Positions 10,416-51,850 of a stretch of DNA of 64,000 nucleotides are shown one piece after another. Under the pieces are notes generated by a model. The model was not told the DNA's origin and made no database searches. It saw only the letters and a list, made by a program, of their open reading frames with translations. Source of the stretch: an uncultured delta proteobacterium (GTDB taxonomy: Bacteria; Desulfobacterota; Desulfobacteria; Desulfobacterales; JAFDCJ01). Both the position numbers and the translations under genes were made by a program. The stretch is from contig CAVYNY010000011.1 of the NCBI GenBank assembly GCA_963769935.1, forward strand, positions 384,001 through 448,000, given 5' to 3'. Each line of letters begins with the position of its first letter. Position 1 is the first letter of the stretch.

Positions 10416-10742
10416 TTAGTTAATAGTTGATAGTTAGTAGTTGATAGTTAGTAGTTGATAGCAGATAGTTCATAGTTGATAGGTAAAAGGCTAAAGGCTA
10501 AAGGTAAAAGGTTAAAGGCAAATGGTATTACTTTACGGTATGCGCTTTGCTCTATGCTCCTTACCCGCTCACCTTCCCAAATTCTTATCTTCTTCTTATC
10601 CTCTCTCCTTTCCGCCTTCCTACCCTCTCACTTTCTGATCTTCTTATCTTCTAACCTTCCCACCATCTTATCTTCTCGCCTTCTCTCTTTTATCGTCTGT
10701 CCTCTGACCTCTGTCTTCTATATCTATACTATGCCCTTTGCT
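10416..10742. repeat. Composite 7/8-mer repeat element, family C
   Basis: GATAGTT and TAAAGGC-type heptamers, a 44-bp core at 10514-10557, then TTCTTATC octamers and TCTGTCC heptamers. Homologous to 35452-35731 and 51581-51850. Confidence 0.85.
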
Positions 10743-11081
10743 TTAGATTGCATCACTGCCCGTCTCACCGGTCCTGACGCGGACGGCTTCTTCAACCGGC
10801 AAAACAAATATCTTTCCGTCTCCGATTTTGTTGGTATTGGCGGCCTCACGGATTTTTTGCACGACCTGGACGGCGCGATCATCATCCACAACAATTTCAA
10901 TTTTAATCTTGGGAATGAAGTCCACTACATATTCGGCCCCCCGGTAGATTTCCTTGTGACCCTTCTGCCGGCCGTAACCTTTGACCTCGGAAACCGTCAT
11001 TCCCTGAATGCCGATTTCATTGAGCGCCTCTTTCACGTCGTCCAGCTTAAAAGGCTTTATCACCGCTTCAATTTTTTTCAT
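10743..11081 (-). CDS. glnB: PII nitrogen regulatory protein
   Basis: [18 protein letters not shown]-loop YRGAEY (Tyr51), GDGKIFV, VRVRTGE. Linkage to amtB means it could equally be named glnK. Confidence 0.95.
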
Positions 11082-11103
11082 TACCTCGCCTCCCCTCTAT
11101 GTT

Positions 11104-11215
11104 ATTGAATATTCAAGATTGCAAATTGAATATTTGTGGATGTCGCCTTGCTCTGTCCTTTTTAAAATGGAAACGATCCTTAAATATTCAATATTCAACC
11201 TAAAATATTCAATTG
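11104..11215. repeat. Palindromic intergenic element, family A
   Basis: attgaatattcaagattgcaaattgaatattt ... aaatattcaatattcaacctaaaatattcaat. Confidence 0.8.
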
Positions 11216-50089: not shown

Positions 50090-50647
50090 GTCTTAACCTC
50101 ACGGGCTTGGGGTTAACTGCAGCGGATGGCGAATTTGGGTTTCCGAATGTCAGCGTCTGCGATCAGGAAAAATTGCTTGTCAATACCGTTCAGATACAGG
50201 ATTAGAATTACGTTTTATGCCAATTCCGAGGTCTACATTGCTATTTAAGTTCACGCTTGCATTTAAAATATAACAAAAGGCATGTCAATAGAAATATGCT
50301 AAAAACCTGAAATTATATACTAAATTATATTTAGTAACTGATTTCAGCCGGGAGGCAAGAAAACTTTATAAAATGAATATTATTTAGCGACTGAAGCGAA
50401 TATTTCGCTCCAGCGTGCAAGCCGATAAGTCTTTGCTGTTATTCAGATGACTCAAATTCAGTTACTGAAATTGATGCCGAAGACAGCGCATGCTGAAATA
50501 GCCACTCCGGAAATCCGGGTTGGTTGCCTTTTTGCAGATCGGATTTATATTTTACCTAAAAAGGAAACTGCAATACAAATGAATAAGGCCGCTGGTTGAG
50601 GGAGCCGGCCGCCTTCATTTCATACCGAATCGAAAGGAAATTGATGG

Positions 50648-51580
50648 ATGGGAAATCAAATCAGAACGACAATTTTGCTGGCAGTCCTGACTGCGCTTAT
50701 CCTCTGGGTTGGTCAGGTTTTGGGTGGGCGTCAGGGCATGATTATCGCCCTGATTTTTGCCGCCGGTATGAATTTTTTCAGCTACTGGTATTCCGACAAG
50801 CTGGTGCTGAAAATGTATCATGCCAGTGAAGTCACCTCCCGGCAAGCCCCGGAGTTGTATGAGATAGTTCAGCGCCTTACGCAGCAAGCCGGGCTTCCCA
50901 TGCCGAAGATATATGTTATTCCCCAGGAAGCCCCGAATGCCTTTGCCACCGGCAGAAATCCGGAGCATGCCGTTGTGGCGGTCACGGAAGGACTGCGCAA
51001 GATTATGAATCGCGACGAAATAGCGGGTGTTTTGGCTCACGAACTGGCCCACGTAAAAAATCGGGATATCCTCATCGGAAGCATCGCGGCGACCATGGCC
51101 GGCGCCATCATGATGCTGGCGACGATGGCCCGCTGGTCGGCGATATTCGGCGGCTTCGGCGGCAATAACGACGAAGGCGGCCGATCCGGTTTTATCGGCC
51201 TGATCGCGATGTCCATTATCGGTCCGCTGGCAGCCATGATTATCCAGATGGCCATATCCCGCTCACGGGAATATCAGGCGGATGCGACCGGCGCCGAGTT
51301 TGCCGGACATGCGGAGGGGCTTGCCAGTGCCCTGGAAAAGCTGGGAGCCTACTCCAAACGGTTGCCGATGAAGGCCAGCCCGGCCACGGCCCATATGTTT
51401 ATCGTCAATCCCTTGTCCGGCAAGAGCATGCTGAACCTGTTTTCAACACACCCGCCGCTCGAGGAAAGGATTGCGCGGCTGAGGGGCGTTCGGCCGCCGT
51501 CTGCCGGAAGAAAAGCGGAATCCGGCCTGGACACGCAAGCGGCGAGAGCAAAGGCGGAGTGGGATCGGCTTGCGAGCTAA
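50648..51580 (+). CDS. htpX: Membrane zinc metalloprotease HtpX
   Basis: YWYSDK, PNAFATGR, HELAH, SRSREYQAD, FSTHPP. Confidence 0.95.
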   Translation: MGNQIRTTILLAVLTALILWVGQVLGGRQGMIIALIFAAGMNFFSYWYSDKLVLKMYHASEVTSRQAPELYEIVQRLTQQAGLPMPKIYVIPQEAPNAFATGRNPEHAVVAVTEGLRKIMNRDEIAGVLAHELAHVKNRDILIGSIAATMAGAIMMLATMARWSAIFGGFGGNNDEGGRSGFIGLIAMSIIGPLAAMIIQMAISRSREYQADATGAEFAGHAEGLASALEKLGAYSKRLPMKASPATAHMFIVNPLSGKSMLNLFSTHPPLEERIARLRGVRPPSAGRKAESGLDTQAARAKAEWDRLAS

Positions 51581-51850
51581 GACAAAGAAAAGAAGGTGAG
51601 AAAGAAAAAAAGCTCATGGCTGATAGCTCACAGCAAAGGCGATAGATGAAAAAGACAGAAGTCAGACGACAAAAGAAAGAAGATCAGAAGATGAGAAGTT
51701 AAGAAAATAAGAAGGTGAGAGGGTAAGGAGCATAGGGCATAGAGCAAAGCGCATAGCGTGAAGTAATATCATTTGCCTTTATCCTTTTACCTATCAACTA
51801 TGAACTATCAACTCTATCCAGTATCGAGCAACCAGCATCAAGTATCCAAG
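51581..51850. repeat. Composite repeat element, family C (reverse orientation)
   Basis: 51737-51780 is the reverse complement of the 44-bp core, flanked by AGAAGAT/AAGAAGGT and CTATCAA tracts. Confidence 0.85.

What the first reader, a model, noticed from the sequence alone, without database searches (positions are those of the whole stretch)
10416..51850. Family C element: fixed 44-bp core with variable 7/8/9-mer arms, oriented with transcription in all three copies
Seen: three copies (10416-10742, 35452-35731, 51581-51850). They share AAAGG(C/T)AAATG(G/A)TA(T/A)TACTT(T/C)ACG(G/C)TATGCGCTTTGCTCTATGC at 10514-10557, 35553-35596 and, reverse-complemented, 51737-51780. Arms keep the same order of repeat types but differ in copy number. 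Each copy starts within a few nt of a stop codon (glnB, dpaL, htpX) and has the same orientation relative to that gene. No terminal inverted repeats or target duplication are evident. Inference: a non-IS dispersed element acting or spreading at the RNA level (processing/stability signal, or recognition core with slippage-grown arms). Three copies is a small sample.
Basis: partly seen in the sequence, partly recalled or inferred. Interest (0 to 1): 0.7.

Follow-up and report, generated by a model that had tools for sequence, protein, structure and literature searches.

The report
Chimeric repeat-arm spacer element, four copies
This is a real repeat element with four copies in the genome, built from the same 7-, 8- and 9-letter repeat arms that flank small four-helix-bundle genes in this genus, and it likely spread by recombination between such arms rather than acting as an RNA signal.

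Summary
The three copies and the 44-bp core are real. The genome holds only one more (C33). The core is not a dedicated signal. It joins two repeat-arm ends that also occur separately (33 places; two other loci), and the join was found in 0 of 400 other genomes of the order. About 970 of 4,979 spacers carry such 7/8/9-mer arrays. Family C's arms match flanks of four-helix-bundle (PF05635) genes in the same polarity (32 of 32 matches). Orthologous spacers in relatives hold other arm mixes, one with a broken four-helix gene. There is no conserved RNA fold, terminator, Rfam match, terminal inverted repeat or general target duplication. Orientation is 3 of 3 informative (copy 3 lies between convergent genes). 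Other multi-copy centres are random (56:48), though some arm types lean about 3:1. Best reading: a lineage-private, gene-less chimera copied between array-bearing spacers by recombination. The surprise: a ~97.6% identical strain in an RNA library lacks copies 2 and 3 cleanly. This scan noted the general arm/four-helix link before on other genomes; I found no paper describing it.

The parts
10398..10742 (-). Copy 1, filling the glnB-glnA spacer. In transcript order: G-rich arms X (7-mer), Y/Y2 (8-mers), Z (7-mer), the join, then C-rich arms W, V (7-mers) and the glnA RBS
10514..10557 (+). Copy 1 'core': inner end of arm W (10514-10530) joined to inner end of arm Z (10531-10557)
10417..10482 (-). 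Copy 1 start-codon-side 7-mer arm (V); similar arms stand before glnA in several relatives; one sample lacks two units
35442..35733 (-). Copy 2, from 1 nt after the true dpaL stop to just before the ychF start; absent in the strain of run X20
35553..35596 (+). Copy 2 'core': W end 35553-35569, Z end 35570-35596
35445..35523 (-). Copy 2 outer 9-mer arm (U); the same arm type stands at this site in relatives with a different centre, and flanks a four-helix gene in L120
35517..35713 (-). Inner block of copy 2 shared colinearly with copies 1, 3 and 4 (85-90% identity over aligned columns)
35735..35737 (-). True dpaL stop codon (the gene is frameshifted upstream in this assembly)
51572..51848 (+). 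Copy 3, between convergent htpX and hgcB, including the last htpX codons that differ from relatives; absent in the strain of run X20
51737..51780 (-). Copy 3 'core': Z end 51737-51763, W end 51764-51780
51815..51848 (+). Copy 3 outer 7-mer arm (T) beside the hgcB stop; the same arm type stands at this site in L079, L080 and L085, and flanks the C20 four-helix gene
11104..11213 (.). Comparison, not family C: symmetric gene-less twin (amtB-glnB spacer) of the four-helix cassette at C13:92588; folds well (z -3.39)

Best explanation
Family C is a gene-less join of repeat arms of the kind that flank four-helix-bundle genes, and it was likely formed once in this lineage and likely copied between repeat-bearing spacers by recombination. 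Shown: the arms are four-helix-cassette arm types in cassette polarity; the core is two arm ends joined; the join is private to this lineage among the genomes searched; the four sites carry other arm mixes in relatives; units are gained and lost singly. Inferred: (1) cassettes settle just behind stop codons, lose their gene and leave arms, and successive cassettes stack; (2) a deletion or crossover fused a Z arm to the older W-V-U right half seen at nrdD-nrdG; (3) the 150-200-nt inner block was pasted into other spacers by ectopic homologous recombination or gene conversion primed on shared arm types, favouring nearby sites; (4) slippage changed unit numbers; (5) the common orientation follows from which arm types already faced the stop or the start codon. 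The element is probably a tolerated passenger, not a regulatory RNA.
For: Core halves occur separately: 33 places; C20:388672, C20:420437 and the orthologous nrdD-nrdG spacer of G022. The join was found in 0 of 400 other genomes of the order and not in two public collections. Arms match flanks of 89 four-helix cassettes 32 times, all in cassette polarity, with 0 matches in three shuffled sets. 62 of 83 cassettes share an inverted 10-mer between flanks, against 7% for mismatched pairs. Orthologous spacers hold different arm mixes and never the join: 14 glnB-glnA, 5 dpaL-ychF, 11 htpX-hgcB, 14 acd-tetR. The G013 glnB-glnA spacer holds an internally deleted four-helix gene. Outer arms of copies 2 and 3 match those at the same site in distant relatives, while the centre differs (L225, L054, L062; L079, L080, L085). 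Best-homologue pairs of centres cluster locally: 13 of 147 within 50 kb against 2.0 expected, 0 of 5,000 permutations, with 2 of the 13 being family C; the excess is in asymmetric elements, 16 of 101 against 1.5. Arms X, Y, Z and U lean to family C's orientation elsewhere in the genome. There is no fold or covariation.
Against: A ~97.6% identical strain (run X20) lacks copies 2 and 3 entirely, outer arms included, and keeps the relatives' htpX ending. Under this model that needs two clean losses, whereas near-empty spacers occur in only 1 of 44 orthologous spacers of relatives (L240). All 5 tandem loci that carry the right half are in sense (p about 0.06). Arm W leans the other way genome-wide (28:55). 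No four-helix gene or remnant lies inside family C, and arms W and V matched four-helix flanks only weakly or not at all. No recombination event was observed, and local clustering would also fit short-range hopping. Genes were called with a home-made caller.
Confidence: 0.58

Rival explanations
1. Family C is a non-autonomous passenger inserted whole behind stop codons by whatever moves four-helix cassettes, perhaps through an RNA copy (the protein is an Avd homologue).
For: Clean empty alleles at two sites in a close strain, with the ancestral-type htpX ending (L-S-x-stop in 10 of 18 relatives). Four-helix genes are co-oriented with the upstream gene in 83 of 85 scorable loci. Close four-helix proteins at apparently different sites share arms in 34 of 49 pairs against 62 of 2,809 distant pairs, for example 90% identical proteins behind gltX and glnS. 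5 of 5 sense. PF05635 resembles Avd (PMC10053308, passages).
Against: Outer arms are shared with distant relatives at the same site. Gene-less multi-copy centres are randomly oriented, 56:48. No target duplication genome-wide: 66 against 58+/-5, and 13 against 15. The copies have no common ends. The reverse transcriptases examined look like group II intron enzymes (one confirmed by family scan), the nearest about 27 kb away.
Confidence: 0.26
2. One reading: the core is a cis-acting RNA processing or stability signal kept by selection downstream of stop codons.
For: Stop-codon adjacency; 3 of 3 informative copies in one orientation; arm U leans 38:12 to the start-codon side, like the TAACTGA repeats proposed as translational signals (PMC4679880 passages).
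Against: The core is absent at the same sites in all 44 orthologous spacers of relatives, in 400 other genomes and in a close strain at two sites. No fold, covariation, terminator or Rfam match. The flanking genes are unrelated in function.
Confidence: 0.07
3. The element is cut out of the transcript and the ends rejoined, and the joints in run X20 are spliced RNA.
For: Both clean joints come from an RNA library and were not listed for the three DNA runs laid beside it.
Against: The ends of the element do not pair. One joint lies between convergent genes. X20 contigs cover all 30 bins at similar depth and cross convergent genes, as carried-over DNA would. DNA runs show comparable skips at other arrays (43363-43837 in X2, X7, X10). 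The joints have only 30-31 letters on the short side and come from a different strain, one contig each.
Confidence: 0.04
4. The copies are an assembly artefact or independent look-alikes made by slippage.
For: Metagenome-assembled genome, 5.4% contamination; low-complexity arms.
Against: Contigs of runs X1 and X2 cover copy 1 with 0-2 other letters, and a contig from another study bridges glnB into the core with 13 differences. Copies differ from each other by 10-15%. Only 4 places match within 12 mismatches.
Confidence: 0.03

Closest known systems
ORF-bearing intervening sequence (IVS) of 23S rRNA with S23p/four-helix-bundle gene, Coxiella burnetii (PMC4990558; passages read)
   Same: Heptamer repeats (GACAGAT/GACAGAA) upstream of the four-helix ORF that vary in number between strains; family C's X arm is of this type. 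In this genus four-helix genes sit between inverted arms.
   Different: Family C is in mRNA spacers, has no ORF and no terminal stem (the IVS has a 28-bp stem cut by RNase III), and stacks several unrelated arm types.
Intergenic heptamer repeats: TAACTGA of Beggiatoaceae (PMC4679880; abstract and passages) and GGGAATC of Xanthomonas (PMC4692102; passages)
   Same: Intergenic 7-mer tandem units close to stop or start codons, partial orientation bias, 7-nt indels, often two arrays in convergent orientation.
   Different: Those are single-motif arrays. Family C is a compound of 7-, 8- and 9-mers with a shared join copied between loci. The Beggiatoaceae paper has no hit for 'four helix' or 'intervening'; the Xanthomonas paper was not searched for those terms.
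Avd, the accessory protein of diversity-generating retroelements (PMC10053308; passages)
   Same: Homologous to PF05635, the gene carried by the parent cassettes.
   Different: No template/variable repeat or adjacent reverse transcriptase was seen at family C; the genome's reverse transcriptases look like group II intron enzymes.
MITEs and REP/BIME elements (defining features recalled, from no call)
   Same: Short, non-coding, dispersed, intergenic, present or absent between close strains.
   Different: No terminal inverted repeats, no target duplication, no short GC-rich palindrome, and ragged ends.

Membership tests
Four-helix-bundle cassette arms (class as noted by this scan and measured here; not found in print) | G-rich 7/8/9-mer arms on the 5' side, C-rich arms on the 3' side, starting at a stop codon | tested here: met
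Four-helix-bundle cassette arms | Arm units match flanks of PF05635 genes in the same polarity | tested here: met
   32 of 32 matches among 89 cassettes; X, Y, Y2, Z, U, T clear, W weak, V not matched
Intact four-helix-bundle cassette | Left and right arms are inverted copies of each other | tested here: not met
   0 shared inverted 10-mers in all 4 copies; fold z -0.39, 0.00, -2.34, +1.3
Intact four-helix-bundle cassette | Four-helix ORF or remnant between the arms | tested here: not met
   No tblastn hit at the copies; one 25-nt resemblance in copies 2 and 4 is inconclusive; a remnant exists at the orthologous site of G013
23S rRNA IVS | Lies in an rRNA gene with a terminal stem | tested here: not met
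   mRNA spacers; no Rfam match; no end pairing
23S rRNA IVS | Excision by RNase III | not testable with these tools
   Needs in vitro cleavage or RNA end mapping
Intergenic heptamer repeats (STRR, TAACTGA, GGGAATC) | Tandem 7-nt units in spacers near stop/start codons, varying by whole units | tested here: met
Intergenic heptamer repeats (STRR, TAACTGA, GGGAATC) | One dominant motif per array | tested here: not met
   Six or more arm types per copy
IS / MITE | Terminal inverted repeats | tested here: not met
IS / MITE | Target-site duplication | tested here: not met
   No enrichment in 241 stop-adjacent array spacers; imperfect 7-8-nt look-alikes at family C ends are at the chance rate of about 25%
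IS / MITE | Match to catalogued IS ends | not testable with these tools
   No ISfinder library; no match in 72,556 plasmid records
Structured cis-regulatory RNA | Conserved fold with compensatory changes, conserved across relatives | tested here: not met
   0 of 15 pairs compensatory, 4 sequences only; absent in relatives

The most novel reading that the evidence does not exclude
Family C is a passenger of an undescribed transposase-free mobile system. Four-helix-bundle (Avd-like) cassettes and their gene-less derivatives are put in precisely behind stop codons through an RNA copy and can be removed precisely, possibly from the transcript itself. That would explain the clean joints across copies 2 and 3 in an RNA library, the 83:2 sense orientation of the genes and roughly 970 array-filled spacers in one genome.
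Probability: 0.12. Interest if true: 0.85.

Novelty: new variant of a known kind. Interest (0 to 1): 0.4.

Why it matters
Abundant intergenic heptamer repeats in bacteria have no known source or mode of spread (PMC4679880 says no mechanism is evident). This genome has them in about a fifth of its spacers. Family C works as a natural tracer: a private join at four sites, with orthologous spacers in relatives and filled or empty alleles in close strains. That makes the question 'recombination between arms or insertion of whole units' directly testable with strain genomes. As a regulatory RNA it is not supported, and as an element it is one of about 30 multi-copy groups in this genome.

Tried and rejected
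Rfam at gathering scores: no match. Core patterns in the GTDB and metagenome collections: none; near genomes may be left out there, and the pattern fitted only two of the four copies. No 'filled' family C with an ORF at the join was found. Target-site duplication: suggested by eye at copies 1-3, rejected by the genome-wide control. A 25-nt stretch in copies 2 and 4 resembles the C20 four-helix gene (5 mismatches), but the best match among 91 relatives' genes is 8 mismatches: left as a lead. Terminator and promoter scan of copy 1: nothing beyond shuffles. Unit-level orientation test of the 30 commonest units: none survives correction; the 18-mer test is more sensitive and is the one reported. 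The orientation spanning-tree test includes chained groups and some non-heptamer elements. tblastn and NCBIfam missed the G013 remnant; it was confirmed through full-length relatives. A flank seen beside a copy-4-like piece in run X19 has no match in G000. Copy 4's site lies about 70 kb from glnA in G008 but not in G000's gene order: not used. Run X1 may be the source sample. Literature searches found no paper on arm-flanked four-helix cassettes in mRNA spacers; the library lacks most subscription papers, supplements were not read, and curator comments of TIGR02436 were not seen.

Full report
OBSERVATION. The three cores are where stated, with 39 of 44 positions identical. A genome-wide search at up to 12 mismatches returns 4 places and nothing else; the fourth is G000:C33:75725. 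The flanking genes are glnB-glnA, dpaL-ychF, htpX and hgcB, and acyl-CoA dehydrogenase-TetR. Copies 1, 2 and 4 lie between co-directed genes and read the same way in the transcript, which is the reverse of the core as written. Copy 3 lies between two stop codons and cannot be scored, so the count is 3 of 3 (p=0.25). Copy 2 starts 1 nt from the true dpaL stop, because the gene is frameshifted in this assembly. Contigs of two runs cover copy 1 with 0-2 other letters, one with a 14-nt (two-unit) deletion, and a contig from another study bridges glnB into the core with 13 differences. The element is real and predates this strain.

ANATOMY. In transcript order each copy reads: G-rich arms X (7-mer), Y and Y2 (8-mers), Z (7-mer); the join; C-rich arms W and V (7-mers); then a site-dependent arm, U (9-mer) or T (7-mer). 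The arm letters are my labels. The core is the inner end of Z abutting the inner end of W. The Z part matches 33 places in the genome. The W part, with V and U behind it, stands behind a different left half at C20:388672 and C20:420437, and at the orthologous nrdD-nrdG spacer of relative G022. Only the join is private: 4 hits in G000, 0 in 400 other genomes of the order, 0 in the GTDB and metagenome scans (near genomes may be left out there).

THE CLASS. With a home-made gene caller (it under-calls short genes), 966 of 4,979 spacers up to 800 nt carry 7/8/9-periodic arrays, against 10 after shuffling. Arrays are G-rich in the 5' half (474:145) and C-rich in the 3' half (381:111), a layout that looks the same from either strand. 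243 of 743 start within 15 nt of a stop. The genome has 7 PF05635 four-helix-bundle genes; 5 lie between inverted arms, one has mainly a 3' arm, and one has same-sense repeats on both sides. All 23 genomes of the genus have the family. I fetched 90 of the 164 matching loci, giving 91 hits: of 83 with enough flank, 68 have an array and 62 share an inverted 10-mer between flanks (control 7%). 83 of 85 scorable genes are co-directed with the upstream gene. Family C's halves match these flanks 32 times in 89 cassettes, always in cassette polarity, and never in three shuffled sets; W matches weakly and V not at all. The amtB-glnB spacer next to copy 1 is a gene-less twin of the C13 cassette. Family C differs from such twins: its two sides are not inverted copies (213 of 569 centred spacers are).

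ORTHOLOGOUS SITES. Relatives with the same gene pairs have spacers of 77-439 nt (14 of 19 loci parsed), 81-183 nt (4 of 19, plus L225), 66-588 nt (11 relatives, two with uncertain ends) and 86-377 nt (13 of 14 with the same upstream gene, one nearly empty). Most carry arms, each a different mix, and none has the join. The G013 glnB-glnA spacer holds the first 8 and last codons of a four-helix gene with the middle gone. At dpaL-ychF, a 78% identical relative has X outside left and U outside right, as copy 2 does, around another centre. At htpX-hgcB, three relatives have arm T beside hgcB, as copy 3 does. I infer old array-bearing slots whose centres are exchanged.

SPREAD AND ORIENTATION. 569 spacers have a clear G-to-C switch, and 198 of them fall into 32 groups sharing sequence across it. 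Among co-directed spacers these homologues are oriented alike 56 times and oppositely 48 times (p=0.49). Best homologues cluster: 13 of 147 pairs lie within 50 kb against 2.0 expected (0 of 5,000 permutations; 2 pairs are family C), mostly among asymmetric elements. Single arm types do lean, family C copies excluded: X 24:10, Y 26:13, Z 29:10 (p=0.003) and U 38:12 (p=0.0003) towards family C's sense; W 28:55 against (p=0.004); Y2, V and T neutral.

RNA SIGNAL. Fold z-scores are -0.39, 0.00 and -2.34, and +1.3 for copy 4 with a cruder shuffle; symmetric elements have a median of -4.5 (21 of 25 below -2) and asymmetric ones -0.8. The consensus fold has 15 pairs, none compensatory (four sequences give little power). 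There is no terminator in copy 1 and no Rfam match. The genome's 10 RT matches look like group II intron enzymes (one confirmed) and its 11 Y1 transposase matches are not beside any copy.

EVIDENCE AGAINST MY READING. Run X20, an RNA library with a strain about 97.6% identical (79 differences over 3.3 kb), has one contig joining 35439 to 35734 and one joining 51571 to 51849. Copies 2 and 3 are wholly missing, leaving 6-nt and 2-nt spacers, and htpX then ends Leu-Ser-Gly-stop as 4 of 18 relatives do, not Leu-Ala-Ser-stop. The same strain keeps the weak array at 37.5-37.8 kb. The short sides are 30-31 letters. DNA runs show such skips at another array (43363-43837 in X2, X7, X10), and X20 covers all bins at similar depth, so genomic empty alleles are the plain reading. 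They could be clean losses or the state before insertion; I cannot polarise them. A target duplication suggested by eye failed its control.

MECHANISM. I commit to: cassette relics, one fusion event, copying of the inner block into array-bearing spacers by ectopic recombination, then slippage (0.58). Whole-unit insertion by the cassette's own machinery is the main rival (0.26). An RNA signal (0.07), RNA excision (0.04) and artefact (0.03) follow. It works like a relic of an IVS-type four-helix cassette. It is not a member of the IVS, IS/MITE or intact-cassette families, because tested features fail.

LITERATURE. PMC4990558 (passages): heptamer repeats of X type precede the S23p ORF of the Coxiella IVS. 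PMC4679880 (abstract, outline, passages) and PMC4692102 (passages): intergenic heptamers near stop or start codons with partial orientation bias. PMC10053308 (passages): PF05635 resembles Avd. Seven searches showed no paper on arm-flanked four-helix cassettes in mRNA spacers; supplements were not read. Earlier notes of this scan report the general link in other genomes (121 findings hold the search words); none matched this DNA. I held the four-helix reading before looking. What is added here is the chimeric join, its local spread, and filled and empty alleles in close strains.

VERDICT. Real; a new variant of known intergenic heptamer repeats; interest 0.4.

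Noticed in passing
window 35735-36942: dpaL carries two 1-nt frameshifts (near 35868 and 36587) that the X20 strain lacks. Strains in runs X7 and X10 lack dpaL here altogether (joint 35437-37002).
   Followed up: partly
window 51852-53352: hgcAB mercury-methylation genes, both over the NCBIfam cut-offs.
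   Followed up: no
window 43363-43837: Another array element (copies near 24895, 43483, 59873) is skipped in three DNA runs, together with the last codons of the upstream gene. A four-helix gene in L210/L212 has arms of this type, which run A-rich first, unlike the usual polarity.
   Followed up: partly
window 449-597, 11104-11213, 12598-12657: Members of the largest symmetric gene-less family (40 spacers, 15:15 orientation), twin of the C13:92588 four-helix cassette.
   Followed up: partly
G000:C11:462151-464223; C17:221273-223268; C11:191888; C13:596782: Four 98-99% identical group II intron-type elements; two sit directly beside a Y1 (IS200/RAYT-like) transposase gene.
   Followed up: no
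L203 (G007) and L134 (G014): The same cassette behind the same gene, intact in L134 and internally deleted in L203, whose arms are longer.
   Followed up: no
L214 (G007): Six four-helix matches with identical scores on six contigs of one genome, suggesting recent multiplication.
   Followed up: no
G000:C33:75866-77038 (L075): The acyl-CoA dehydrogenase gene upstream of copy 4 is in three frames.
   Followed up: no
G000:C8:188562: A GxxExxY (PF13366) gene flanked by long direct repeats rather than inverted arms.
   Followed up: no
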